A DNA stretch of 64,000 nt from a virus (lineage: Duplodnaviria; Caudoviricetes): IMG/VR virus record IMGVR_UViG_3300044728_000163, positions 8,465 through 72,464 of that record, one strand, 5' to 3'. The notes beneath the pieces were generated by a model. That model made no database searches and was not told the DNA's origin. It was given only the letters and a program-made list of their open reading frames with translations. Made by a program: the position numbers and the translations under genes. Below are positions 1 through 11,423 of the stretch, piece after piece. Each line of letters starts with the position of its first letter. Position 1 is the stretch's first letter.

Positions 1-299
1 GCGGCATGCGCGTCCAACCAGAACATGGACGGCCCCATCAGGATCGAGGCCACGAACGGCAAACAGAACCGCGTGTCCCCCGAAAGGAACGCCACATTGG
101 AATGGTTGGCGCAATGCTCACGCGCCAAATCCTGAAAGTCCGAGTTGACCTCGATGGTATAGACCTTCGAAAACCGTTCCGCCGCCCACAAGGTCGAATC
201 CCCCTCGTACGTGCCCGTCTCGACCAGCACCTCGAGATCGAACCGCTGCTTCAACCCCATCGCCAGACCCGCCACGGGTGGATCACTCAGCTTCGACAT
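1..299 (-). CDS. Class I SAM-dependent methyltransferase-like protein (partial, runs off the window start)
   Basis: Not in the ORF track; translated by hand from ATG 299 (GGAGG RBS at 306-310): MSKLSDPP...LVETGTYEGDST...VYTIEVN...NVAFLSGDT...MFWLDAHA. The ETGTYxG, IE, GD and WLDAH motifs fit a Rossmann methyltransferase family. Confidence 0.7.
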   Translation of the reverse strand, partial: MSKLSDPPVAGLAMGLKQRFDLEVLVETGTYEGDSTLWAAERFSKVYTIEVNSDFQDLAREHCANHSNVAFLSGDTRFCLPFVASILMGPSMFWLDAHA

Positions 300-337
300 G
301 CGACACCTCCGACCCGACACCACGAGGAGCGACCCCA

Positions 338-1492
338 ATGGCCACTCTATCGGTCGGACAAAACCAGCAATACGTCACGATCGCCGCCGCCGTCGCCGCC
401 TCCCAAAGCGGCGATGTCATCACCGTCCAGGCGGGCACCTACACCAACGACTGGCTGAACATCGACCACGACCTGACCCTCACCGCCCAAGGCGGCTGGG
501 TAAAGCTGGTCACCAACCAGGCCCAACCGCCCGATGGCAAGGCCTACATCACCGAGTCAGGCAACGTCACCATCAGCGGCTTCGACATCAGCGGCGTCAC
601 CGTGCCCGACGCCAACGGGGCCGGCGTACGCTACCAGGGCGGCAACCTCACCCTCGACAATGTGTTCATCCACGACAACCAGGAGGGTCTTCTCGGTGCC
701 GCCGATCTCAGCGGGTCGATTACCATCACGAATTCTGAGTTCGCCCGCAACGGCCTCGGCGGCGACGGACATACCCACGCCATCTACGTCGGTCCCGTCA
801 GCAACTTCACCCTTACCAACAGCTATATCCACGACACCAACATCGGCCACGAGGTCAAATCCCGCGCCCAGAACAACGTCATCACCGGCAACCGGATCTT
901 CGACAACGATGCATCGGCGTCCTACAGCATTAACCTACCCAACGGCGGCACGGCCACCATCACCGGCAACGTCATCCAGCAAGGACCAAACAGCCAGAAC
1001 CCCGCGATTCTGGCATACGGTGAGGAAGGCATTCCAACGGGCTACAGCACCGGAGCCACGGTATCCAACAACACGATCATCAATGATCAGGGTTCAGGTT
1101 ATTTGCTACTTAACCCTGGCGGCTATCCTGTTAATTTCGTTGACGGCACGGTATTTGGGCTGACCACGGGTGGCACGGTTCTGGCGGCACGCCCTGTTTT
1201 GGACCTGGCTCCGATAGGATTCCTTGGAGCGTCACCACCACCGTCGCCACCGCCACCAGCGGCACCGCCGCCGCCGCCACCAGCCACGCCACCATCAGTG
1301 CCTGACCCATCGCCCGCTCCCGTCCTCACGCCGCTTGAACAATATCACGCCGACGTTCTCGCCGATTTCAAAGCCTGGGCACCCACCCACATCAAGTTGT
1401 CCACCATGGACCGCACGCTGGCCGTGTTGAACACCGAACTGAACTCCACCACCGTTCTCGGCATCATCCGCGGCGACAAGTGGAGCCACTAA
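338..1492 (+). CDS. Right-handed parallel beta-helix (pectin-lyase-like) repeat protein with poly-Pro linker
   Basis: GAGGAG RBS before ATG 338. N-terminus TIAAAVAASQSGDVITVQAGTY, repeated ITxSxFxxN / IxGNxIxxN rungs, then a SPPPSPPPPAAPPPPPP linker and a short C-terminal domain. Confidence 0.75.
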   Translation: MATLSVGQNQQYVTIAAAVAASQSGDVITVQAGTYTNDWLNIDHDLTLTAQGGWVKLVTNQAQPPDGKAYITESGNVTISGFDISGVTVPDANGAGVRYQGGNLTLDNVFIHDNQEGLLGAADLSGSITITNSEFARNGLGGDGHTHAIYVGPVSNFTLTNSYIHDTNIGHEVKSRAQNNVITGNRIFDNDASASYSINLPNGGTATITGNVIQQGPNSQNPAILAYGEEGIPTGYSTGATVSNNTIINDQGSGYLLLNPGGYPVNFVDGTVFGLTTGGTVLAARPVLDLAPIGFLGASPPPSPPPPAAPPPPPPATPPSVPDPSPAPVLTPLEQYHADVLADFKAWAPTHIKLSTMDRTLAVLNTELNSTTVLGIIRGDKWSH

Positions 1493-1532
1493 AAAAAGAC
1501 CCGGCGCTCGCTCTGCTAAGAAGCGCCGGGTC
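1491..1532 (-). terminator. Intrinsic terminator for leftward transcripts (possibly bidirectional)
   Basis: Perfect 11-bp stem GACCCGGCGCT...AGCGCCGGGTC (1498-1532) with an A7 run at 1491-1497, i.e. a U-tract on the minus strand, lying between convergent genes. Confidence 0.7.
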
Positions 1533-1614
1533 AGTTGGGGGTCTTGGCGGTGGAAGTGCTAAAAAACACCGCCTGTCGGCCTGGACGGGGGTGGGGATGC
1601 CCAGGCCAACCTCG

Positions 1615-1698
1615 TTACCACACGGTCCAGACCGCGAGGCAAAACACCGCCCAGAAGGCCACCACGAGGACGACCAACCAGGCTAAACCATCAGGCAC
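1615..1698 (-). CDS. Possible 27-aa single-TM peptide
   Basis: GTG start overlaps the end of the upstream PEP-CTERM gene; MPDGLAWLVVLVVAFWAVFCLAVWTVW is strongly hydrophobic. Confidence 0.3.
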   Translation of the reverse strand: MPDGLAWLVVLVVAFWAVFCLAVWTVW

Positions 1699-2455
1699 GA
1701 CGACGCCGACGCGCCGCCACCAGTCCAGCCATCCCCATTCCAAGCACCGCCAGCGTGGCGGGTTCCGGGGTATCGACGGCGGTCGGCACGATGACCAGGT
1801 AGAAGCTTTCCGCGCCGTCGCTGGCACCACTCCACGCCGCGTGGAACAGCAGATTGTCTCCCGGCTGGATCACGCAATCGGCCAGGACGAACTGGCCGCT
1901 GTCACGGCAACCCAGTGACAGGTCGAACCCGCTGATCAGATAGTCCCCTTTCCCGTTACCGTTCTGGATATCCGGCAACGCGAGCGGCAGACCGGCGAGG
2001 TCGAAGATCACCCGCTGACCGGCGGGCTTGCTGATGTCCAGAAGCTGAAACGCGTCCAACGTCTCGCCGCCATGCGCGGTGTTCACGTCGATGACGACAC
2101 CGAATTTAAACAACGGATCAGTGCCGCCCGCGTTCAGGAACGCCTCCAGAAAGGCCCCGGTGTAGGGCAACGCATTGGCTTCAAGATCACCCACCAACGG
2201 CCCGCCATTGGCGATGTTGGTGGAAAACGTGTTGAACGCCGCGTCGGTCCCCCGGTTACTGAAGTCGTTATAGCCGAACCCAGACGGCTGGCTTCCGGCG
2301 TTCGTGCCGCAGATGATGCACGGGGCTGACAGAGACTGCGGCACCGGGTTGGCCAGTGTCGTGACCGTCAGCGCCGCCTGGACCGGAGCCGGGATCGCCA
2401 TGTTGGCGAACACAGCGACCCCGACAGACGCGGCAAGGAGAATAGAACTCTTCAT
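1691..2455 (-). CDS. PEP-CTERM sorting-domain protein (secreted, exosortase substrate)
   Basis: Signal peptide MKSSILLAASVGVAVFANMAIPAPVQA; C-terminal DTPEPATLAVLGMGMAGLVAARRRRRA (PEP + TM helix + Arg cluster). Confidence 0.85.
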   Translation of the reverse strand: MKSSILLAASVGVAVFANMAIPAPVQAALTVTTLANPVPQSLSAPCIICGTNAGSQPSGFGYNDFSNRGTDAAFNTFSTNIANGGPLVGDLEANALPYTGAFLEAFLNAGGTDPLFKFGVVIDVNTAHGGETLDAFQLLDISKPAGQRVIFDLAGLPLALPDIQNGNGKGDYLISGFDLSLGCRDSGQFVLADCVIQPGDNLLFHAAWSGASDGAESFYLVIVPTAVDTPEPATLAVLGMGMAGLVAARRRRRA

Positions 2456-3135
2456 GCCGCGCACCCCTCAAAGCTAGCGCGCCGTTTCCGGCGCGTCAGC
2501 CCCAGACCCACCAGACCGGCACCCAGGATCGCCAGCGAGGCCGGTTCCGGCACGTTGGCCGACTCAGCCGATACGTCGCCCGTGAAACTGGCCGTGAACG
2601 CCCCAATCGTCGCCGCGCCGATGCCCGCGGAGGTGAGGTGCAGCGCGGGAGAAAGGTTGACGAAGGTCAGATTGAAGCTGGTGGGATCTTGCAGTTCGCT
2701 CGCTGGGACCACGTTGGAGGTCAGCGTCAGCACGTCTGGCGGGCTGCTTGCCGAGATCACGAGGCCCGTGCCGCCGTTCGCCCCAAACGCCGCGTCCGAA
2801 AACACGCCAGACAGGAAGTTGCCGCCGCAGCCCGAGATTGAGGAAACGCAGAAGCTACCGGCGAAGTGCTGGATAACCGAGCCGCCGAAATTGACCGCCG
2901 TGTCGATGGAAGTGGCGGTCATCTGGAAGCTGGCACCCGCGACATTGAACGAGCCACCACCCAACGTCACCAAAGTCCCCGGCGCGATGCTGATCGTGGT
3001 CGTCACCCCGTTGTCGGTCGCGACGACGGTGTTGGTCCCGCTTTCCTGCGCCATCGAGGTGATCAACACCGCCGATGCCGGGTTGGCCAGGCCGATGGCG
3101 CAGAGCGCCGCGCCCGCGTAAAGTAATTTCTTCAC
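2452..3135 (-). CDS. PEP-CTERM sorting-domain protein (secreted, exosortase substrate)
   Basis: GTG start after GGAG; signal peptide MKKLLYAGAALCAIGLANPASA; C-terminal NVPEPASLAILGAGLVGLGLTRRKRR. Confidence 0.85.
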   Translation of the reverse strand: MKKLLYAGAALCAIGLANPASAVLITSMAQESGTNTVVATDNGVTTTISIAPGTLVTLGGGSFNVAGASFQMTATSIDTAVNFGGSVIQHFAGSFCVSSISGCGGNFLSGVFSDAAFGANGGTGLVISASSPPDVLTLTSNVVPASELQDPTSFNLTFVNLSPALHLTSAGIGAATIGAFTASFTGDVSAESANVPEPASLAILGAGLVGLGLTRRKRRASFEGCAA

Positions 3136-3311
3136 AGTGAAGTCTCCCATGGGTTAACGGCGATCCACCGCCGCGAAACCCATTGTAGGACCGTCACCAT
3201 CAGCCGTCCCGGCGAAACGTCGCGGCGATGTTTATTGGACGCTGTAATAAACTCAATAAGTTGCGGACCAATACAGGGGAAATTCCCTTAAACCGTCGCC
3301 ATTCTTTACAG

Positions 3312-3482
3312 TCACCAAAACCGCCCTTCCATCGTATCGACCGGCGTGCGGGTCGGAGCCAGCAACGCTTTCACCGCCTCGCGCAGTTCCAGATTATGCC
3401 GGGTGATGTTGGCTACCTCGCGCTCCAGGTTGGCGACCCGCGCCCGTAGCCAAAGTATGTCCTCGTTCTCGCTCACCTTCAT
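3312..3482 (-). CDS. Small coiled-coil protein (56 aa)
   Basis: Hand translation MKVSENEDILWLRARVANLEREVANITRHNLELREAVKALL..., 2 nt after the methyltransferase stop; heptad pattern. Confidence 0.55.
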   Translation of the reverse strand: MKVSENEDILWLRARVANLEREVANITRHNLELREAVKALLAPTRTPVDTMEGRFW

Positions 3483-3484
3483 GT

Positions 3485-5101
3485 TTATTTCCCTTTCGAT
3501 ACCAGTTGGATGCGCTCACCAATCCACCTGACGACCGGCGCGGCGAATGAATTCCCCAATGCTTTGTATTTCGCCCCATCAGATGCCGGTTTGCCACGAA
3601 ACTGAATATCCAGATAGTCGTCGGGAAACCCCTGTAAACGGCAACACTCGGTTGGCGTCAGCCGCCGCACGGCGGCTCCGGCCTCTACCATCGGCGTGCC
3701 ACGCCCGGTGCCGTCTTCGCTACCATCGAAGCCCTCGCCGGTCAGCGCGTGGGTCACGACCGTCCCCTCCATGGCACCGGTCCCCGCCGACGCGTCACGC
3801 AGCGGGCTGGCCGTGTCGGCCCAGTTCCACCAGCCCTGGCCGGTGTTGTTGTACGTCACCACCACGTCGCCGCCCTGCGCGCCGCTGACCGGTCCCGATC
3901 CCATCAGCGGTTGCGATACCTCCACGGCGCGGGCCTTGTAATCGGTGTTCTGGCGCTGCGGCATGATCGAATAGAGTTGCTGGGCGACGAAGGTATCCTG
4001 GCTGTCGCGACCAGACCCGAACACGCCGCCCTCGTCCTGCTTGCCAGCCGAGACAGCGTAGGCCGGGTCGGGAAACCCTTGGGTGATGAACGTCTCGGTT
4101 TCGAAGTCCATCCTGCCACCGGGATGGGCGTTGCACGCGGTGGCCACGTCGAGGGGGCCGGACTGCCGATTGCCGCCAAACGCCACACCGCCACTCAGAT
4201 TCCGAGCGCGGAAATTGGTGCCTTCGTGGCTCCAGGTTTTCCACTCGGTGGTGCTGACCGGGTCCGCGACGGTCTGGATGTAGGTTTCCTGGTCGAGGTC
4301 GCCGCGCCAACCACCTTTGCCGGGAGTTCCTCCAATGGGTCGGGAAACAGCGACAACGGGGTCTTGGCCTCTGGTTTCACCACCGCGGGAGTAACCCCGG
4401 CCACTCGCTCCAAGGCTCTGTGCAACGGGGTGGGTAATGCCTTGCCCCGCTTCGCCGCGCGCCGGAGGATTCCCAAGCATGCTCGCGCGCTCAAGTAATA
4501 CCGGCTCCCGATCGGCCCAGTTTCCAAAATCGCAGACAAAGAAGATACGCTTGCGCCGTTGCGCCAGTCCCCGCCATTGCGCGTCCAGCACGCTCCACTC
4601 GACCATCCCAGTTGGTCCGACAGCACAACCGGTGCTTCGCCAGCCATCTCGCGGAACGTCAAATCTGGTCCCAACCAGACCGCCAACCACGCCAGCAAAG
4701 TCGCGTCCCGCGTGGGAACTGAACAGGCCTGGGACGTTTTCGATGACGACCCAGCGGCATCCGCAATGCTGCCTGGCCCGCTGAACAAATCGCATTGCAT
4801 CCCAGAAAAGACCGGACCTGGTGGCGCTTCCATCGGCATGCTTAAACCCCCTCCTTTTCCCCGCTATACTCACGTCCTGGCAGGGAAAACCACCCACGAC
4901 GACATCGACGCGACCCAGCGCCCGAATAACATCTTCGTCAATATATCTAACATCGCCCAAATTGGGCGCGGTGCGGTGCCGTACCTTCAAGACCTCACAA
5001 GGGAATGGCTCCACCTCTGCCGTGGCGACGCACGTCCAACCCAGCGGCTCCCACGCCAGCGACGCCGCCTCGATGCCGCTGAACAAGCTGACGAACCGCA
5101 T
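3485..5101 (-). CDS. dcm: C5 DNA cytosine methyltransferase with enlarged variable region
   Basis: Motif I SLFSGIEA, motif IV GGFPCQDVSIAG, motif VI IENVPGL, motif VIII QRRKRIF, motif IX RRLTPTECCRLQGFPD, motif X GNSFAAPV. Confidence 0.93.
   Translation of the reverse strand: MRFVSLFSGIEAASLAWEPLGWTCVATAEVEPFPCEVLKVRHRTAPNLGDVRYIDEDVIRALGRVDVVVGGFPCQDVSIAGKRRGFKHADGSATRSGLFWDAMRFVQRARQHCGCRWVVIENVPGLFSSHAGRDFAGVVGGLVGTRFDVPRDGWRSTGCAVGPTGMVEWSVLDAQWRGLAQRRKRIFFVCDFGNWADREPVLLERASMLGNPPARGEAGQGITHPVAQSLGASGRGYSRGGETRGQDPVVAVSRPIGGTPGKGGWRGDLDQETYIQTVADPVSTTEWKTWSHEGTNFRARNLSGGVAFGGNRQSGPLDVATACNAHPGGRMDFETETFITQGFPDPAYAVSAGKQDEGGVFGSGRDSQDTFVAQQLYSIMPQRQNTDYKARAVEVSQPLMGSGPVSGAQGGDVVVTYNNTGQGWWNWADTASPLRDASAGTGAMEGTVVTHALTGEGFDGSEDGTGRGTPMVEAGAAVRRLTPTECCRLQGFPDDYLDIQFRGKPASDGAKYKALGNSFAAPVVRWIGERIQLVSKGK
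4195..4839 (-). CDS. Nested alternative-frame ORF inside dcm (overlapping partner polypeptide)
   Basis: 214-aa same-strand ORF wholly inside dcm containing SSLSAILETGPIGSRYYLSARACLGILRRAAKRGKALP, a motif I recognise from alternative-frame ORFs of phage C5 methyltransferases. Confidence 0.55.
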   Translation of the reverse strand: MPMEAPPGPVFSGMQCDLFSGPGSIADAAGSSSKTSQACSVPTRDATLLAWLAVWLGPDLTFREMAGEAPVVLSDQLGWSSGACWTRNGGDWRNGASVSSLSAILETGPIGSRYYLSARACLGILRRAAKRGKALPTPLHRALERVAGVTPAVVKPEAKTPLSLFPDPLEELPAKVVGAATSTRKPTSRPSRTRSAPPSGKPGATKAPISALGI

Positions 5102-6006: not shown

Positions 6007-6338
6007 GTTTCCGGTTCCTCTTTCACCGCCCTCCACAACACGCGATTCGAACCGTCCTGAAAGCGTCGCAGCTTTGTATCGACGATCAAACCCATCTCGG
6101 TCAGTTCCGATCGCCGGGTGCGATGAGTGCTTTTGTGATCATTGAAATACGACTGAAGGTCCAGGTCGGTGATCGCTTGTGGCCAGATCGAACGGAAATA
6201 ATCCAGCACTTCAATCTGGATATCCGTCATCCGATGTTGGATGCGCTCCGCGGCGATATGCGATGTGTCGGGATCGCCAGGCCGCGCGCGGGTATGCGGT
6301 TCGAACAGACTTATCTGGTTTGAGTTTTTCCGTGCCAT
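6003..6338 (-). CDS. Winged-helix DNA-binding protein (phage)
   Basis: ARPGDPDTSHIAA...ITDLDL...RTRRSELTEMGLIVDT...RVLWRA; helix-helix-recognition helix-wing pattern. Confidence 0.55.
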   Translation of the reverse strand: MARKNSNQISLFEPHTRARPGDPDTSHIAAERIQHRMTDIQIEVLDYFRSIWPQAITDLDLQSYFNDHKSTHRTRRSELTEMGLIVDTKLRRFQDGSNRVLWRAVKEEPET

Positions 6339-6357
6339 GACGGTTACCAGTCGCCGG

Positions 6358-6873
6358 TCATGGCGTCGTTTCCTGTTCCTTCCCGATCCCCAGACGGCTC
6401 GCCATCATGGTCAGCGTCGTGGCGACCGGCGTCGGCTTATCTGGCGAAACGATCTGCGCCACATGCCGGTCGCGCGCCAGGTAGCCGATCAACTGCAGCG
6501 CGCTCGCCTCCGCGTAGGCCCGCGCCTGGCCGTTCGCGGTCATGTCGTTGGCCACCTCCACCGCCCGTACAATCGACCCCGCCGCGCGCCGGGTGCTACG
6601 GCGGATGCGGCGGCGCAGATTGACCCCCACCAGCGCGGCCCGCTCCGCTTCCAACCTCTGATAGCCAACCGTCCGCACGTTCACGAACAGGCTTCCGCCT
6701 TCCTTGTTCGCCAGGTCGATCGCTCGCAACACCAGATACCGACGCGCCTGGACATCGGCCCCGATCGCGGCGGAAAGCTGCGAATACGTCACGATCTCGC
6801 CAACGCTGGTCGCCATCAGCCGGTCGCGTAGATGCTGGATATCCGCGGCCAGAATACTCTGTGGTTTGAACAT
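6358..6873 (-). CDS. Putative winged-helix protein, first gene after the repeat array
   Basis: AGGAG RBS just after the last pentamer tract; N-terminal GEIVTYSQLSAAIG...FVNVRTVGYQRL is wHTH-like. Confidence 0.55.
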   Translation of the reverse strand: MFKPQSILAADIQHLRDRLMATSVGEIVTYSQLSAAIGADVQARRYLVLRAIDLANKEGGSLFVNVRTVGYQRLEAERAALVGVNLRRRIRRSTRRAAGSIVRAVEVANDMTANGQARAYAEASALQLIGYLARDRHVAQIVSPDKPTPVATTLTMMASRLGIGKEQETTP

Positions 6874-6976
6874 GGATTATCTCCTGGGTTGAAGACGATG
6901 CGATGCGATGAGCAGTGCAGCGCAGAGATGCTGGGCGGCGCGACGCGGTGCGAGGCGCTGCGGCGCGGCGTTGGGC

Positions 6977-7022
6977 CTCTCGACCCGGCATCCAGTCCGC
7001 AAACTGGATGCCGCGTGGAGAG
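6977..7022 (-). repeat. Array hairpin repeat H1
   Basis: + strand CTCTCGACCCGGCATCCAGT-CCGCAA-ACTGGATGCCGCGTGGAGAG. Confidence 0.9.
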
Positions 7023-7119
7023 GCAATGCGATGCGATGCGGGGCGCGGTGGCGCGATGTGGAGCGGTGCGTCGCGGCGCGGAGCGCTGTGAAGCGCGGAG
7101 CGGCGTCGCGGGGTTGAGT

Positions 7120-7164
7120 CTCTCGACCCGGCATCCAGCAAAACGCTGGATGCCATGTCGAAAG
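7120..7164 (-). repeat. Array hairpin repeat H2
   Basis: + strand CTCTCGACCCGGCATCCAGC-AAAAC-GCTGGATGCCATGTCGAAAG. Confidence 0.9.
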
Positions 7165-7246
7165 AACGATGCGAGGCGACGCGGGAAAGTGCGCTGTGGC
7201 GAGACGCGGTGCGGCGCGCGGCGCAGTGTCGCGCAGGGTGTCGGGC

Positions 7247-7290
7247 CTCTCGACCCGGTATCCGGCCTGATCCGGATGCCATGTCGAGAG
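7247..7290 (-). repeat. Array hairpin repeat H3
   Basis: + strand CTCTCGACCCGGTATCCGG-CCTGAT-CCGGATGCCATGTCGAGAG. Confidence 0.9.
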
Positions 7291-7427
7291 CGATGCGATG
7301 CGGGGCGCAGCGTGGCGTAGCCGAGCGCAATGACGCGGAGCGAAGCGGGGTGAAGCCATGAGAAGCGGTGAGCAGCGATGTGTGGCGTGGCGCGGTGTTG
7401 CGACGAGGAGCGCCGTTCGGTTTGAGT

Positions 7428-7474
7428 CTCTCGACCCGGCATCCGGCCCACGAGTCTGGATGCCGCGTGGAGAG
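7428..7474 (-). repeat. Array hairpin repeat H4
   Basis: + strand CTCTCGACCCGGCATCCGG-CCCACGAGT-CTGGATGCCGCGTGGAGAG. Confidence 0.9.
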
Positions 7475-7581
7475 CGATGCGAGGCGATGCGAGGCGCGGA
7501 GTGGTGTTGCGTAGTAGTGCGTAGCGCGGTGCTGCGCGGCGTGGTGCTGCGCCGAGGCGCGCGGCGTGGGACCACCTGGGC

Positions 7582-7624
7582 CTCTCGACCCGGTATCCAG
7601 CCGATCTGGATGCCGCGTCGAGAG
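7582..7624 (-). repeat. Array hairpin repeat H5
   Basis: + strand CTCTCGACCCGGTATCCAG-CCGAT-CTGGATGCCGCGTCGAGAG. Confidence 0.9.
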
Positions 7625-7766
7625 CGTCGCGTCGCGACGCGTTGAGTTGCAAGGCGGTGCGTTGCGCCGCGAGGCGGGGCGATGGGCTGCGGAGCGGCGC
7701 GTGGCCTGGTGGTGCGGCGTGTGGCGTGGCGCTGTGCAGAGCGGCGAAGCGGCGCGACGAAGGGGC

Positions 7767-7810
7767 CTCTCGACCCGCCCTTGGGACCGATCCCAAAGCC
7801 ATGTCGAGAG
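7767..7810 (-). repeat. Array hairpin repeat H6 (inner stem replaced)
   Basis: + strand CTCTCGACCCGCCCTTGGGA-CCGA-TCCCAAAGCCATGTCGAGAG. Confidence 0.85.
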
Positions 7811-7908
7811 ACGGTGAGGCGATGCGAGGCGATGCGGCGCGGGGCAGAGCGCAGAGTGGCGAGGAGTTGCGTGAAGCGGCGGCGCGGCGCGCTGCGTTGA
7901 GTGAAGGC

Positions 7909-7952
7909 CTCTCGACCCGGCATCCAACATGACCTGGATGCCGCGTCGAAAG
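7909..7952 (-). repeat. Array hairpin repeat H7
   Basis: + strand CTCTCGACCCGGCATCCA-ACATGACC-TGGATGCCGCGTCGAAAG. Confidence 0.9.
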
Positions 7953-8071
7953 ACGCGTTGCGCGGCGAGGAGTAGCGGCTCGTCGTGAGGCGTAGCGTGG
8001 AGCGGCGTTGCGTCGAGTCGAGGCGTGAGGCGCTGCGGCGCGCGGTGTCGCGACGAGGAGCGTCGTTGGGC

Positions 8072-8118
8072 CTCTCGACCCGGCATCCAGCCGCGAAGGC
8101 CGGATGCCGCGTCGAAAG
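8072..8118 (-). repeat. Array hairpin repeat H8
   Basis: + strand CTCTCGACCCGGCATCCAGCC-GCGAA-GGCCGGATGCCGCGTCGAAAG. Confidence 0.9.
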
Positions 8119-8199
8119 ACGCGTTGCGTTGAATAGCGACGAGTCGCGGGGCGAGGCCGAGCGATGAGTTGAGATGCCTTGAGGCGGTTGGCCTTGAGT

Positions 8200-8244
8200 C
8201 TCTCGACCCGGCATCCAGACCAAATCTGGATACCGCGTGGAGAG
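8200..8244 (-). repeat. Array hairpin repeat H9
   Basis: + strand CTCTCGACCCGGCATCCAGA-CCAAA-TCTGGATACCGCGTGGAGAG. Confidence 0.9.
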
Positions 8245-8331
8245 AACGATGCGATGCGATGCGATGAGATGCGCGGAGGTGCGTTGCGCCGCGATGCGCC
8301 GCGTCGCGCGGCGAGGTGTAGCGTCGATGGA

Positions 8332-8381
8332 CCTCGCGATCCGACCTTCAGACCAACCGGTCTGAAAGCCGCATGGCGAGG
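8332..8381 (-). repeat. Array hairpin repeat H10 (divergent, gene-proximal)
   Basis: + strand CCTCGCGATCCGACCTTCAGACC-AACC-GGTCTGAAAGCCGCATGGCGAGG; same position and fold, different sequence. Confidence 0.65.
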
Positions 8382-8452
8382 CGAGGCGTCGAAAAGCGAT
8401 GAAGCGCGAGGCGTCGCGGCGCGGTGAGAAGTGTTGCGGCGCGGTGGAAACA

Positions 8453-9046
8453 TTAAGCTGCGATCTGGCGATTATCTTGCCATACCAGCTTATCGATTTG
8501 GAAACGACCGTTCGTTCCACCCTTCTCGGGCCGGAACCGACCGATGCCAACGAACAGGCCACTCAGGTTGACCATCTCGCGGAAAATCGTTTCGGTAATA
8601 ATAGGATCTAGGATAATCACATCGAAGGTTGATTGCCATTCCGGCATGATCGGAAACCTACGCGTCACCCGCTTGCCAGAGCCGCGCACCCCATCGGGGT
8701 TGGCGCTGATGGTCACGCTCGTCACCGTCGCTGGATCGATGTTGAGCGCGGGGTCTTCCAGAACCGCGATACCCGCCGTAAACTTAGCTGTCCATGTCGC
8801 CTTGCCCTGGCCGGGGATTTGTCGCTTGGAATATTTGGCACCAGAAGCGAAGCACTGTTGCAGACCATGCGCCGGAATCACCACGGTCGGTTTCCCATCG
8901 CGAATGGTGTGATTCATCTTGTGTTTCCAAGTCCTTAAGTCCCAATCGTCGGGCCTTTCTCCTTCTAGTTTAGGCTCATCATGCTGACGGCTCTGCGACA
9001 AGGGCGTGATGCCCTTGATCGTGACGGTGGCGATGCTGGCTTGCAT
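8453..9046 (-). CDS. Solitary RAMP-superfamily (Cas7-like) RNA-binding protein
   Basis: N-terminal strand ATVTIKGITPL, RAMP-like VVIPAHGLQQCF (xIPxxxLKxxL), and C-terminal Gly-rich loop GLFVGIGRFRPEKGGTNGRFQI. No other cas gene in the window. Confidence 0.7.
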   Translation of the reverse strand: MQASIATVTIKGITPLSQSRQHDEPKLEGERPDDWDLRTWKHKMNHTIRDGKPTVVIPAHGLQQCFASGAKYSKRQIPGQGKATWTAKFTAGIAVLEDPALNIDPATVTSVTISANPDGVRGSGKRVTRRFPIMPEWQSTFDVIILDPIITETIFREMVNLSGLFVGIGRFRPEKGGTNGRFQIDKLVWQDNRQIAA

Positions 9047-9066
9047 GGTAAAAGTCCTTTTTTAAC

Positions 9067-9131
9067 GTGGCGTCGAGACGCGATGAGAGGCGTTGAGTCG
9101 AGATGCTATGCGACGCGCGGCGACGCGCGAT
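9067..9131 (-). promoter_or_regulatory. Isolated pentamer tract in the 5' leader of the RAMP gene
   Basis: + strand gtggc gtcga gacgc gatga gaggc gttga gtcga gatgc tatgc gacgc gcggc gacgc gcgat: 13 in-phase pentamers ending about 10 nt upstream of the RBS. Confidence 0.6.
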
Positions 9132-9321
9132 CGTCTCCAGCCTCGCGACTGGCGTCCAGCCGCAAGACTCCATCCAGAATGTCGCAGATGATCCAACTGA
9201 CTGACCGGCGCTCCATCTCGGCGCGCCGATTGAGCACGCCGTACAGGTCGTCGGTCAGCCGAACGTGAACTGACTTACCCTTGGCCCCGCCCGAACCAGG
9301 CGCGACAGGTCTTCCAGCCAT
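9106..9321 (-). CDS. Ribbon-helix-helix (CopG/Arc-like) regulator
   Basis: KSVHVRLTDDLYGVLNRRAEMERRSVSWIICDILD: beta strand followed by two helices. Confidence 0.7.
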   Translation of the reverse strand: MAGRPVAPGSGGAKGKSVHVRLTDDLYGVLNRRAEMERRSVSWIICDILDGVLRLDASREAGDDRASPRVA

Positions 9322-9386
9322 CACTCACTCCAACCCTGAACAGACCAAACGGACTATCATGGGAACATGAGGATAGCAATGGGTAA

Positions 9387-9719
9387 TTATTTCAATATTC
9401 CGTTGTCGATGCCCCACCCACGCATGATGTCCAGGCCACGCTGGCGCTTCTCTTTCTCGGTGTGGCCATCGTTGTAGAAATTCACCCCCGTGAGGATGTC
9501 GGCCACCCACTCCTTGCCGTCCGCGCGCATCACCGGACCCACTTCGCGATCACCTCCCTGGCGCTCCCAGATCGGCTCGTAGAACCGGTTGAACAGCACC
9601 TCGCGACCGGTCTTCGTCGTCCACATGCCGTAAGCGATGTCATTCTGACGTTCGAAGTCACGCGCGGTGGCGAAGTGACGAGGCTTCCCGCCGTGGGTGA
9701 ACCGTTCCTTGAAACTCAT
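9387..9719 (-). CDS. Hypothetical protein
   Basis: 110-aa ORF with GGAGG RBS upstream. Confidence 0.6.
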   Translation of the reverse strand: MSFKERFTHGGKPRHFATARDFERQNDIAYGMWTTKTGREVLFNRFYEPIWERQGGDREVGPVMRADGKEWVADILTGVNFYNDGHTEKEKRQRGLDIMRGWGIDNGILK

Positions 9720-9983
9720 GTCCCTACCTCCCTAACGTGCCTCTACCATCCGCCCCTACCTATTGTGAAGAAAATGGCTGATTTCCGCCATTTGCCTCCA
9801 CGTCACCACCTCCCCACCGGTTTTCCAAAACCCTCTCCTGTGCGTGCGTATACACACATGCGTGCAGGTGCCTATAGGTAGGGGCGTGGGGGCATGTTGG
9901 TTTATTACCTAGAGAAAGCTGGTTGGGGAAGTGCCACCACGGTGGGGGCATAGTGGGGGCGAAACACCCAAAGGTAGAGGCAA

Positions 9984-11423
9984 TCAGGTGCCAGGAGCCT
10001 CGTCAGGCGGTTGCCAGGTCGTGGTCTTCCCGCGCGACAGTTCATTTTTGACTGTTGGCAATCTAACGTGGCGAGACGCGATCCATCCCATCGCCTTCAG
10101 AACCTCGGCCACCCTCATCTCATGCACCTTAGACATTTTATCTTTTGTCATGCCGATCGCGTGTTCCAAGATCCTGGCGACGTAGATTGGTTCGACGGCG
10201 AGGAACGCGTCGGTCGGTTCCGCCTGATCGGCGATGATCCGCGCCTTCGCTTCCGAGCGCTCCCGTTCGGTTTTGGCGACCCATCGTTGGACGGCCACGG
10301 TCCAGATGTCCTCGCGCATGCGCGTGTTGGTCAGCCGCGCCGCCTCGGCCTGCAGTTCGTCGGTGTCCAGCCATAGCCGCCGGTCGTCCCCTTCCGCCTC
10401 GCGCGCCGCCGCTTCCGCCCATAATTGTTCTCTGTTAGCAATGATCCATTGAACATCCGCCTTCTGACAGAAGGCCGGCCAGAACCGTGTATTCCCAGTT
10501 GTATCCTTCAAATAATCTTGTTGATTTGTCGTTCCAAAGAACACTCCCTCGCGTGGCACGTCGCGGAAATGGCGCTCATACGGTGGCCGGAAATGATCGG
10601 TGTTCCTTGACAAAAACGCCTTGAGTGTTTCCACATCGGAACGGATGACCTGCTCGATCTCGCTGAACTCGACCACCCATTTGCCGAAAAGTCCTTGCGC
10701 CGCCTCCTTGTTTCGCAAATCCGCGAACACCGTGTCGGTGAAGAACTCCTTGCCGTACAGCACCTCGATCACCGTGCTTTTGCCGAGCCTTTGCTCGCCT
10801 TCCAATATCAACATCGAATCGAATTTGACCCCTGGACGGCGCAGCCGCCGCACCGAAGCGACCAGCATCCGCGCGCCGATCGCGGCGTAGTAATCCTCGC
10901 GTGCCTTCCAGCGAGCGTATTCCGCCTCGTCACCATTGCGGTCGAACTCGTTGCGGACATCGAAGGCCTCGACCATCCAGGTGTCGATCCGATAGACACC
11001 ATCCCATCGTAACGAATTAATCCAGTCCAGTATTGGATGATATGAATTCTGCCGCGCCACGACCTCCATGGCGTCGGCCACGTTGGCGCGTGGCCAGTTC
11101 TTGTTCCAGGCGCACTGCAGGTACCCGGTGACCAGGGTGATGTCGGTGGTGTTCCACGGCCTGGGGTATGGCCCCCGCTCGTCCACCTCCGAGCCGTCGA
11201 ACCGGGGTGGTGGCCGCAGCAACACCGCCTGACAACGGTAACTGTCGAAGGCGAACATCGGACCCAGCGTGCCCGTGAACGGATCATCGTTAGCCAGGAT
11301 CATCATCGCGTTATGTAAAGTAACAAAGACATCACCGTCTTTGGGCCGCGCCAGGCGGAACCGCCAGCCTGGGTCCGGTGATTCGAAAGCGTCTGGCGCG
11401 TCGGGCGGATCATTTGGCATCAT
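9984..11423 (-). CDS. VapE/VirE-family (SF3-like) replicative helicase/ATPase
   Basis: KFDSMLILEGEQRLGKST (Walker A), WVVEFSEIE (Walker B), FRPPYER, FFGTTNQQDYLKDTTGNTRFWP. Confidence 0.85.
   Translation of the reverse strand: MMPNDPPDAPDAFESPDPGWRFRLARPKDGDVFVTLHNAMMILANDDPFTGTLGPMFAFDSYRCQAVLLRPPPRFDGSEVDERGPYPRPWNTTDITLVTGYLQCAWNKNWPRANVADAMEVVARQNSYHPILDWINSLRWDGVYRIDTWMVEAFDVRNEFDRNGDEAEYARWKAREDYYAAIGARMLVASVRRLRRPGVKFDSMLILEGEQRLGKSTVIEVLYGKEFFTDTVFADLRNKEAAQGLFGKWVVEFSEIEQVIRSDVETLKAFLSRNTDHFRPPYERHFRDVPREGVFFGTTNQQDYLKDTTGNTRFWPAFCQKADVQWIIANREQLWAEAAAREAEGDDRRLWLDTDELQAEAARLTNTRMREDIWTVAVQRWVAKTERERSEAKARIIADQAEPTDAFLAVEPIYVARILEHAIGMTKDKMSKVHEMRVAEVLKAMGWIASRHVRLPTVKNELSRGKTTTWQPPDEAPGT

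What the first reader, a model, noticed from the sequence alone, without database searches (positions are those of the whole stretch)
6977..8381. Array hairpins show covariation and point to a minus-strand RNA
Seen: consensus CTCTCGAC-CC-GGCATCC-[variable stem-loop]-GGATGCC-GC/AT-GTCGA(G/A)AG. The loop-proximal stems differ but still pair (AGT/ACT, AGC/GCT, AGA/TCT); in H6 and H10 the inner stem is entirely replaced (TTGGGA/TCCCAA; TTCAGACC/GGTCTGAA). By my manual count about 10 imperfect positions become G-U wobbles on the minus strand versus 3 on the plus strand. Inference: selection acts on RNA structure in the RAMP transcript; the hairpins are processing sites (RNase III-like duplex or the RAMP itself) or protective ends that release single guides. 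They are longer than typical CRISPR repeat stems and no Cas6 is present.
Basis: partly seen in the sequence, partly recalled or inferred. Interest (0 to 1): 0.7.

Follow-up and report, generated by a model that had tools for sequence, protein, structure and literature searches.

The report
Hairpin tails of phage VIPR guides
The ten hairpins are real, structure-conserved RNA elements that sit at the end of each guide RNA in a phage VIPR system, a CRISPR-like RNA-guided silencing system first described in 2026, so this is a further example of a known kind rather than a new one.

Summary
Observation confirmed. Ten 47-51-nt hairpins (6975-8381) separate tracts with a strict 5-nt period. They keep pairing through compensatory changes: 95% of cells are paired, 8 of 19 pairs change on both sides, and 0 of 500 shuffles reach this. 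Imperfect positions give 18 G-U wobbles on the minus strand against 3 on the plus strand.

The locus is a VIPR system (bioRxiv 10.64898/2026.04.26.720920). The 197-aa neighbour matches the solved SUSP1 Vipr protein (E 6e-11) and folds like Cas7. The tracts are guide RNAs (vrRNAs), here with a fixed C-R-C triplet instead of the published G-G-Y.

The minus-strand reading is supported mainly by orientation. In 60 related loci, 245 tracts lie on the vipr-sense strand and 16 short ones on the antisense strand. SUSP1 shows the same arrangement.

Each hairpin starts 0-4 nt after the last repeat unit, which is where the published structured 3' tail sits. I read the hairpins as those tails: caps that delimit and protect single guides. 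Whether they are cut, and by what, is untested.

This hairpin family occurs only in this phage and one relative. Other relatives carry different hairpins or U-rich linkers.

This scan has found VIPR loci several times before on other DNA. Verdict: new member of a known kind, low to moderate interest.

The parts
9118..9321 (-). 68-aa ribbon-helix-helix (Arc-like) gene at the head of the unit. Its last codons overlap the leader tract.
   Evidence: ORF read. Weak match to phrog_3431, Arc-like repressor, E 4.8e-4.
9070..9129 (-). Leader tract T0: 12 NN-CRC units in the 5' UTR of vipr, with no hairpin after it.
   Evidence: Pentamer layout. Related loci and SUSP1 also have a tract just upstream of vipr.
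8453..9046 (-). vipr: 197-aa Cas7-like RAMP protein (P0001), the protein that coats the guide tracts.
   Evidence: A family profile hits PDB 36pp 'SUSP1 Vipr protein' at E 6e-11 over residues 14-182. hhalign gives 98% probability, E 2.7e-13. The AlphaFold model (pLDDT 96.8) matches type VII Cas7, Csm3 and Cmr4 chains at E 2e-7 to 1e-5. It matches phrog_4652. There are about 1000 homologues, 51 of them in viral contigs.
6893..8452 (-). Array of 11 guide tracts (T1-T11, 12-26 NN-CRC units each) separated by the ten hairpins. T3 (8121-8197) is partly degenerate.
   Evidence: Each tract keeps a single pentamer phase. C is at 75-100% in fixed positions 1 and 3, and G at 60-89% in the middle position. 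The 5-nt spacing is also seen.
6975..7024 (-). Hairpin H1, the last in transcription order.
   Evidence: Minus-strand fold -39.2 kcal/mol. Model R1 scores 76.5 bits.
7118..7167 (-). Hairpin H2
   Evidence: Minus -35.2 against plus -29.6 kcal/mol, with 2 G-U on the minus strand.
7245..7292 (-). Hairpin H3
7426..7476 (-). Hairpin H4
7580..7626 (-). Hairpin H5
7765..7812 (-). Hairpin H6, with the inner stem replaced. An identical copy is present in the related phage L070.
   Evidence: Minus -31.7 against plus -21.8 kcal/mol. The L070 copy is at 539-593.
7907..7954 (-). Hairpin H7
   Evidence: Minus -36.0 against plus -25.7 kcal/mol.
8070..8120 (-). Hairpin H8
   Evidence: Minus -43.5 against plus -31.4 kcal/mol.
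8198..8248 (-). Hairpin H9
8333..8381 (-). Hairpin H10, the first in transcription order. Both the inner stem and part of the outer stem are replaced with compensation. It is missing from a strain variant (L096).
   Evidence: L096 lacks 8302-8367.
6358..6873 (-). 171-aa accessory gene (P0002, vap-like). Its ribosome-binding site follows the last tract directly.
   Evidence: A homologue lies next to vipr in 53 loci, downstream of it in nearly all. hhalign to SUSP1 vap1 gives only 46% probability, E 2e-4 over 91 columns. BLASTP finds nothing. No Pfam, NCBIfam or PADLOC family matches.

Best explanation
The region is the guide-RNA array of a phage VIPR system.

Shown:
- The 197-aa gene encodes a Vipr protein.
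- Pentamer tracts with three fixed and two free positions flank it on its own strand.
- Each of the ten hairpins begins 0-4 nt after the last unit of a tract and is followed by a 3-12-nt linker before the next tract.
- The hairpins keep pairing through compensatory changes.

Inferred:
- One minus-strand transcript runs from upstream of vipr through the array into the accessory gene.
- Vipr protomers bind one pentamer each. They hold the C-R-C triplet and expose the NN bases, which read double-stranded DNA with one base skipped per unit.
- The hairpin is this clade's version of the structured 3' tail of published vrRNAs. As a duplex it cannot be threaded into the filament, so it ends the filament, marks the guide boundary and shields the 3' end from exonucleases. 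Host nucleases trim the unprotected linkers, which releases single guides.
For: Identity:
- The family profile hits the SUSP1 Vipr protein in the PDB (E 6e-11). hhalign gives 98%. The model has a Cas7/Csm3 fold.
- Pentamer tracts flank the gene in nearly all of 60 related loci.

Strand:
- 245 tracts (3317 units) lie on the vipr-sense strand, against 16 short runs (99 units) on the antisense strand.
- In SUSP1, where vrRNAs were sequenced (bioRxiv 10.64898/2026.04.26.720920), the GGY tracts are also on the vipr coding strand, behind a TTGACA-16-TATACT promoter.
- Locus L028 has TTGACA-18-TATAAG just upstream of its leader tract, by direct reading.
- The hairpins show 18 against 3 G-U cells and the minus strand folds more stably.
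- Read on the sense strand, positions 2 and 3 of the triplet (purine, then C) match the published G2 and Y3. Their contact residues are kept: SUSP1 R138, W178 and R179 correspond to R126, F171 and R172 here.
- The G1 contact D177 is R in CGC loci and Q in all three CAC loci (residue roles from 10.64898/2026.04.26.720927).

Tail reading:
- Published vrRNAs carry a conserved structured tail of about 40 nt directly after the last repeat, with covariation. The tail is treated as needed for complex formation (10.64898/2026.04.26.720920; 10.64898/2026.10.15.759431).
- Here the gap from tract to hairpin is 0-4 nt.

Guide function:
- T1 matches vipr genes at the TAKFTAG motif in codon phase: 21 of 24 in L002 and L030, against 1 of 300 shuffles.
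- A guide of the related phage L070 matches this phage's VapE gene at 26 of 32, against a maximum of 23 in 100 shuffles.
- Across 630 guide windows, scores of 17 or more out of 20 are enriched only under the one-base-skip rule: 44, against 17, 23 and 29 for the other skip rules and 22 for shuffled guides.
Against: - No RNA data exist for this locus, so the ends of the mature RNAs are unknown.
- Hairpin counts do not settle whether the hairpin belongs to the tract before it or after it. The window has 11 tracts and 10 hairpins with a tract first. L070 has 8 and 8, with a hairpin directly after the vipr stop.
- The leader tract and the last tract have no hairpin.
- In most copies the 3' arm and the following GCCCA/ACTCA are nearly invariant while the 5' arm drifts. 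This could mean the 3' arm serves the following guide.
- Vipr proteins that are 70-80% identical carry unrelated hairpins or no hairpin at all, so a specific Vipr-tail contact is doubtful in this clade.
- The G-U asymmetry does not generalise to other hairpin families (43 against 30, p = 0.16).
- The target matches are statistically modest, and T1 also matches the phage's own vipr at 20 of 24.
Confidence: 0.65

Rival explanations
1. The hairpins are endonuclease sites that are consumed during processing, not retained tails. RNase III, or Vipr itself acting like Cas6, cuts the ~20-bp duplex. Mature guides would then carry half-stems at both ends. Because the outer stems are the same in all copies, the two ends of one guide could pair with each other.
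For: - The stems have 18-22 pairs with conserved single mismatches, a length RNase III accepts.
- The outer stem is uniform across copies while the inner stems are free to differ.
- The 3' arm and the downstream linker are nearly invariant.
- The published papers do not say how arrays are processed.
Against: - Published vrRNAs keep their structured tail (10.64898/2026.04.26.720920).
- Related loci with the same protein use U-rich linkers without any duplex, so a duplex-specific nuclease is not generally required.
- No nuclease gene lies in the unit.
Confidence: 0.22
2. The guides are plus-strand RNAs with a G-Y-G/NN motif, transcribed antisense to vipr.
For: - The plus strand is G-rich like published GGY guides.
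- The hairpins also fold on the plus strand, at -22 to -38 kcal/mol.
- Predicted DNA targets are the same for either strand, so the target matches do not discriminate.
Against: - Tract orientation follows vipr in 245 of 261 cases, and SUSP1 guides are sense.
- Tracts run straight into ribosome-binding sites with no room for antisense promoters.
- No promoter-like site was found on either strand of 6300-10000.
- The plus-strand reading would change two of the three fixed bases while their contact residues are conserved.
- G-U cells are 18 against 3 in favour of the minus strand.
Confidence: 0.04
3. The hairpins act mainly on gene expression, not on guides. They would be attenuators, or 3' stabilisers of the vipr mRNA, that set how much of the transcript reaches the accessory gene.
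For: - In L070 a hairpin follows the vipr stop codon directly with no tract before it.
- The accessory gene lies at the far end of the array with no promoter-like site of its own.
Against: - No U-run follows any hairpin, and the scan found no terminator-like site in the array.
- Ten terminators in series would shut off a gene that is conserved next to vipr in 53 loci, downstream of it in nearly all.
Confidence: 0.06
4. The hairpins are DNA-level palindromes, such as REP-like mobile elements or recombination sites, inserted between tracts, with no RNA role.
For: - Units are gained, lost and shuffled between relatives. L096 lacks H10. L070 shares some units at 95% identity and differs in others.
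Against: - The strand-asymmetric G-U pattern has no meaning for DNA cruciforms.
- The family is found only inside these arrays. One viral-contig hit was a chance match in a coding region, and 78 of 80 metagenome loci showed only a chance match to the 17-mer.
- The position relative to the last repeat unit is fixed.
Confidence: 0.03

Closest known systems
Type II VIPR system of Escherichia phage SUSP1 and the Pseudomonas fulva prophage (bioRxiv 10.64898/2026.04.26.720920 and 10.64898/2026.04.26.720927)
   Same: - A homologous Vipr protein.
- Guide tracts of pentamers with three fixed and two free bases, one upstream of vipr and an array downstream, all on the vipr strand.
- A structured element directly after each tract.
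- A small accessory gene next to vipr.
- A phage location.
- Guide matches that follow the one-base-skip rule in codon phase.
   Different: - The fixed triplet is C-R-C (CGC), not G-G-Y.
- The G-loop reads G-I-G-R-F-R-P with a 4-residue insert, where SUSP1 has G-V-G-D-W-R-P.
- The tail is a plain 18-22-bp hairpin rather than a hairpin with a pseudoknot.
- The array holds 11 guides of 12-26 units, against 3 guides of 9-16 units.
- The array lies between vipr and the accessory gene rather than after both.
- Homology of the accessory protein to vap1 is only marginal.
Non-canonical VIPR arrays reported from a genomic language model (bioRxiv 10.64898/2026.10.21.760802: 21 clusters with motifs such as GAC/NN, CAC/NN, WGT/NN)
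   Same: A fixed triplet other than GGY next to a Vipr-like fold. CAC/NN, named in that paper, is the motif of three relatives of this locus: L049, L052 and L057.
   Different: CGC/NN is not named in the text I could read, and the figure that lists all motifs is not held. That paper does not discuss tails or hairpins.
CRISPR repeat hairpins of class 1 systems (Cas6-processed crRNAs)
   Same: A conserved stem-loop alternates with variable guide segments. The stem-loop is kept by structure and caps each guide. The guide is bound by a Cas7-type filament.
   Different: - No Cas6, Cas1 or Cas2 is present.
- The guides are not contiguous spacers but pentamer tracts of variable length.
- The stems are about three times longer.
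- There is no evidence of acquisition machinery.

Membership tests
VIPR system | Vipr protein: a minimal RAMP (RRM core, glycine-rich loop, thumb) homologous to the described Vipr | tested here: met
   PDB 36pp SUSP1 Vipr at E 6e-11. hhalign 98%, 167 columns. The model (pLDDT 96.8) has a Cas7/Csm3 fold. The glycine-rich loop G167-F182 is nearly invariant.
VIPR system | Tandem pentamer tracts (three constrained and two free positions, 9 or more units) in the intergenic regions flanking vipr, co-oriented with it | tested here: met
   Twelve tracts of 12-26 units. 245 sense against 16 antisense tracts across relatives. The same script recovers NN-GGT on the vipr strand of SUSP1.
VIPR system | Canonical fixed triplet G-G-Y | tested here: not met
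   The triplet is C-G-C (C-R-C) on the sense strand. The family as published admits 'related consensus' repeats (NNNGG, YNNNG, NNNNG) and non-canonical triplets such as CAC. This therefore makes the locus non-canonical, not a non-member.
VIPR system | Conserved structured 3' tail directly after the last repeat unit of each vrRNA | tested here: met
   Ten of twelve tracts are followed within 0-4 nt by the covarying hairpin. That the hairpin stays on the mature RNA is inferred.
VIPR system | Adjacent accessory (vap) gene | tested here: inconclusive
   A conserved 171-aa gene lies next to vipr in 53 loci, downstream of it in nearly all. Its relation to the described vap1 is weak: 46% probability, E 2e-4, and no BLASTP match.
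VIPR system | Encoded by a phage or prophage | tested here: met
   Neighbours include VapE, Prim-Pol, DUF669, AAA_24 and an SF1 helicase. 51 homologous loci lie in viral contigs.
VIPR system | Guides specify DNA targets by the NN bases with one base skipped per unit | tested here: met
   Support is modest. T1 against vipr scores 21 of 24, with 1 of 300 shuffles reaching it. An L070 guide against this phage's VapE scores 26 of 32, with a shuffle maximum of 23. Enrichment is seen only at skip 1: 44, against 17, 23 and 29. The database was small and biased toward vipr loci.
VIPR system | vrRNAs are expressed, co-purify with Vipr and silence targets | not testable with these tools
   No RNA or biochemical data are available for this locus.
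CRISPR-Cas array | Direct repeats with contiguous spacers plus Cas6 or other cas genes (Cas1/Cas2) | tested here: not met
   No cas family appears in Pfam, NCBIfam or PADLOC scans of the neighbours. The 'spacers' are phased pentamer tracts of 60-130 nt.
Hammerhead-interspersed VIPR arrays / known self-cleaving ribozymes | A ribozyme fold between adjacent guides | tested here: not met
   Rfam finds no match at gathering score in the window. Only two chance-level hits, neither a ribozyme, appear at E up to 1 over 6800-9200. The element is an unbranched hairpin.

The most novel reading that the evidence does not exclude
In this clade the tail may be a fast-evolving tag rather than a fixed Vipr handle. 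Vipr proteins that are 70-80% identical carry unrelated tails: this 20-bp hairpin, other single or double hairpins, or U-rich linkers. The published work shows that satellites hijack Vipr by copying the tail. Tail turnover here could therefore be an arms race against guide hijacking. Alternatively, the uniform outer stems could let the two ends of each processed guide pair with each other. A second open point is whether R or Q at one G-loop position sets G or A in the fixed triplet. If so, that would be a simple specificity switch.
Probability: 0.2. Interest if true: 0.55.

Novelty: new member of a known kind. Interest (0 to 1): 0.3.

Why it matters
The hairpins themselves add little that is new, because a structured, covarying tail after each vrRNA is already part of the published VIPR description.

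The locus is still useful as a natural test set for a large environmental clade: about 1000 proteins in metagenomes, mostly assigned to Alphaproteobacteria.
- Its fixed triplet is C-R-C rather than G-G-Y.
- One G-loop residue tracks the middle base of the triplet.
- Tails differ between close relatives.
- Its guides appear to aim at rival phages' vipr and VapE genes.

These points bear on how Vipr reads its repeat and on what the tail is for.

Tried and rejected
- My first ideas were a TRAP-like RNA-binding leader and a phage replication origin with iterons. I dropped both once the 197-aa protein matched Vipr and the literature search found VIPR.
- CRISPR and TIGR readings are rejected: there are no cas or Tas genes, and the period is 5 nt.
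- Rfam finds nothing at gathering score and no ribozyme at E up to 1.
- The covariance model of the hairpin found no copy in 60 related vipr loci.
- The exact 17-mer of the 3' arm gave one viral-contig hit, which is a chance match inside a coding region.
- The metagenome scan gave mostly chance hits. It also gave two real arrays, L070 and L096.
- Extending the G-U strand test to hairpins of other families gave 43 against 30, not significant.
- Sense-versus-antisense folding energies of those linkers are mixed and confounded by G-richness.
- The other eleven guides of the window had no match above shuffles in the roughly 0.5 Mb of sequence held. I did not scan the large collections for targets, because exact-pattern scans cannot tolerate the 10-20% mismatches that real targets show.
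- BLASTP of the accessory protein against SUSP1 vap1 found nothing.
- The simple promoter scan found no consensus promoter in 6300-10000.
Full report
**What is in the sequence**

Between 6890 and 8450 the window holds ten hairpins of 47-51 nt. They are separated by stretches of 70-140 nt in which the same letters recur every 5 nt. On the plus strand the unit is G-Y-G-N-N. On the minus strand it is N-N-C-R-C, with R mostly G.

All genes nearby lie on the minus strand. In transcription order they are:
- a 68-aa Arc-like gene (9321-9118);
- a 12-unit leader tract (9129-9070);
- a 197-aa gene (9046-8453);
- eleven tracts separated by hairpins H10 to H1;
- a 171-aa gene (6873-6358), whose ribosome-binding site follows the last tract directly.

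The surroundings are a phage replication module: VapE, Prim-Pol, an SF1 helicase, DUF669 and AAA_24. A C5 DNA methylase also lies nearby. The whole assembly held for this window is one 72-kb contig.

**Check of the observation**

The quoted consensus and the replaced inner stems of H6 and H10 are correct. On an alignment of the ten copies, the predicted structure has 19 pairs.
- 95.3% of cells are paired, against 87.9% in shuffles.
- Eight pairs change on both sides, against 3.1 in shuffles.
- No shuffle of 500 reaches either value.
- Shifting the pairing register by 1-3 columns drops pairing to 27-44%.

Positions that are not Watson-Crick give 18 G-U wobbles when read on the minus strand and 3 when read on the plus strand. 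These fall in eight columns against two. The minus-strand RNA is more stable in 7 of 10 copies, with sums of -336.9 against -290.4 kcal/mol.

Two cautions apply.
- The copies are paralogues, so the cells are not independent events.
- An excess of C-to-T changes on the non-template strand would produce the same asymmetry without selection. It would point to the same transcribed strand.

**What the locus is**

The 197-aa protein has no Pfam, NCBIfam or PADLOC family. It belongs to phrog_4652 and to a very large family: 984 clusters in one search and 1120 representatives in another.

A profile of 73 diverse members matches one entry of the Protein Data Bank, the 'SUSP1 Vipr protein' (36pp), at E 6e-11 over nearly its whole length. 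A profile comparison with the SUSP1 gene product gives 98% probability. The AlphaFold model (pLDDT 96.8) is most like Cas7-type subunits of type VII and type III CRISPR complexes.

A literature search found the matching description. VIPR systems have a lone Cas7-like Vipr protein and guide RNAs (vrRNAs) made of GGY/NN pentamers. These guides read double-stranded DNA while skipping every third base. Each guide ends in a conserved structured 3' tail (bioRxiv 10.64898/2026.04.26.720920). The structures are in 10.64898/2026.04.26.720927. The biology is in 10.64898/2026.10.15.759431.

Earlier notes of this scan had reached the same identification on other genomes.

**Related loci**

I fetched 60 loci that encode relatives of the protein: 51 viral contigs and 9 genomes, mostly Alphaproteobacteria. 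Nearly all have pentamer tracts directly upstream and downstream of the gene.

A tract finder run on both strands gives 245 tracts (3317 units) on the vipr-sense strand. It gives 16 short runs (99 units) on the other strand. The same approach on phage SUSP1, where the guide RNAs were sequenced, puts its GGT units on the vipr coding strand. They lie behind a near-consensus promoter.

A 171-aa homologue lies next to vipr in 53 loci, downstream of it in nearly all. Its similarity to the published vap1 is marginal.

**Which strand**

The wobble count adds to it.

A further argument comes from the protein. Read on the sense strand, the fixed triplet C-R-C keeps the purine at position 2 and the pyrimidine at position 3 of the published G-G-Y. 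The residues said to hold those two bases in SUSP1 (R138, W178, R179) are kept here as R126, F171 and R172.

The residue that reads the first G (D177) is R in loci with CGC and Q in all three loci with CAC. This is inference from an alignment, not a structure.

The wobble test did not generalise. Hairpins of other families in related loci give 43 G-U on the sense strand against 30 on the antisense strand (p = 0.16). Predicted targets cannot tell the strands apart, because either reading specifies the same duplex site.

**What the hairpins are**

In every case the hairpin starts 0-4 nt after the last unit of the preceding tract. A linker of 3-12 nt (often CCAAC or TCAAC) follows before the next tract. 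That is the position of the published tail, about 40 nt directly after the last repeat. I therefore read each hairpin as the 3' tail of the guide before it.

As a duplex it cannot enter a filament that binds single-stranded pentamers. It would therefore end the filament, mark the guide boundary and protect the 3' end. Unprotected linkers would be trimmed by host nucleases.

Several observations keep this from being settled.
- The leader tract and the last tract have no hairpin.
- In the related phage L070 a hairpin follows the vipr stop codon with no tract before it.
- In most copies the 3' arm and the bases after it are nearly invariant while the 5' arm drifts.
- The published papers do not say how arrays are cut.

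Cleavage of the duplex by RNase III remains a real alternative. I put it at about one in five.

**How widespread this hairpin is**

A covariance model of the ten copies found no match in the 60 related loci. The 3'-arm 17-mer gave one chance hit in viral contigs. In metagenome contigs it gave two true arrays among chance hits.

- L096 is the same phage with a 66-nt deletion (8302-8367). The deletion removes H10 and fuses the neighbouring tracts in pentamer phase.
- L070 is a relative with eight hairpins of the same family. Its vap gene is 90% identical in DNA. Some guide-hairpin units are shared with the window at 95% identity and others are different.
- With the L070 copies added, the structure still holds: 96.0% of cells paired, and 26 cells with a change on both sides against 8.3 in shuffles.

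Other relatives, whose Vipr is 70-80% identical, carry different elements between tracts. These are other long hairpins with regular single mismatches, double hairpins, or short U-rich linkers without a stem. The tail is thus much less conserved than the protein. This argues against a sequence-specific Vipr-tail contact in this clade.

**Do the tracts look like guides**

Under the one-base-skip rule the first guide, T1 (8445-8386), matches vipr genes at the conserved TAKFTAG motif, with NN on codon positions 1 and 2.
- It scores 21 of 24 in L002 and L030.
- It scores 20 of 24 in this phage's own vipr.
- Only 1 of 300 shuffles and 0 of 300 resampled guides reach 21.

The second guide of L070 matches this phage's VapE gene near 10392-10439 at 26 of 32, in codon phase. 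The maximum in 100 shuffles is 23. The first guide of L070 hits the 3' end of vipr genes.

Over 630 ten-unit windows from all loci, scores of 17 or more out of 20 number 44 at skip 1. They number 17, 23 and 29 at skips 0, 2 and 3, and 22 for shuffled guides. These figures are modest and the database was small. They do agree with published reports that vrRNAs target rival phages, including the end of their vipr genes.

**Comparison and novelty**

The locus meets the defining features of VIPR that can be tested from sequence. The exception is the canonical GGY triplet. The family already admits related repeat patterns, and a later preprint lists non-canonical triplets, including the CAC found in three relatives here.

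Compared with the characterised type II systems, this locus differs in four ways:
- the triplet is C-R-C;
- the tail is a plain long hairpin instead of a hairpin with a pseudoknot;
- the array is larger, with 11 guides of up to 26 units;
- the array is placed between vipr and the accessory gene.

Rfam gave no ribozyme match, so this is not one of the hammerhead-interspersed arrays.

A structured, covarying element at the end of each guide is already part of the published picture. I therefore file the finding as a new member of a known kind, with low to moderate interest.

Noticed in passing
window 8453-9046 (residues 167-182 of P0001); L049, L052, L057: The G-loop residue aligned with SUSP1 D177 is R in loci whose fixed triplet is CGC. 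It is Q in all three loci whose triplet is CAC. The CTC locus (L047) and the CGA locus (L048) keep R. This may be a specificity switch for one base of the repeat.
   Followed up: partly
window 8386-8445 (guide T1) against 8755-8790 (own vipr), and L002 and L030 4256-4291: Under the one-base-skip rule, guide T1 spells the conserved TAKFTAG motif of vipr genes in codon phase. It scores 21 of 24 in two rival loci and 20 of 24 in the phage's own gene. This suggests either an anti-VIPR guide or self-regulation.
   Followed up: partly
window about 10392-10439 (VapE gene, minus strand); L070 293-378: The second guide of the related phage L070 matches this phage's VapE-like replication gene at 26 of 32 NN bases in codon phase. 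The maximum in 100 shuffles is 23.
   Followed up: partly
L096 (same phage) against window 8302-8367: A metagenome variant that is 99.8-100% identical lacks 66 nt. The deletion removes hairpin H10 and fuses guides T1 and T2 while keeping the pentamer phase.
   Followed up: partly
window 9059-9071 and L062 (SUSP1) 2153-2164: The 13-mer GCCACGTTAAAAA lies between the leader tract and the vipr ribosome-binding site. It also occurs in the tail of SUSP1 vrRNA1. No other fetched locus has the 12-mer CCACGTTAAAAA. This may be chance.
   Followed up: partly
ends of all tracts in the window and in L001-L060: The last two or three units of most tracts are nearly fixed: ATCGC in the window and AACGC in most relatives. 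A short YCAAC or TCCAC motif usually follows each hairpin. Neither is explained.
   Followed up: no
L028, L001, L002, L051, L059 linkers: Hairpins of other families show regularly spaced single mismatches, for example 7-1-7-1-7 pairs. Many share a GGGATGCC-like motif in the 3' arm.
   Followed up: no
L012, L014, L023, L030, L045, L053, L060 and others: Many contigs of relatives end within a few hundred bases of vipr, that is, at or near the arrays. The repeats probably break assemblies, so array sizes in databases are likely underestimates.
   Followed up: no
window 278-3150: A beta-helix (NosD-like) protein and two PEP-CTERM proteins lie here. These look like host genes rather than phage genes, so a prophage end may lie near 3200-3500, next to the C5 methylase at 3485-5101.
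   Followed up: no
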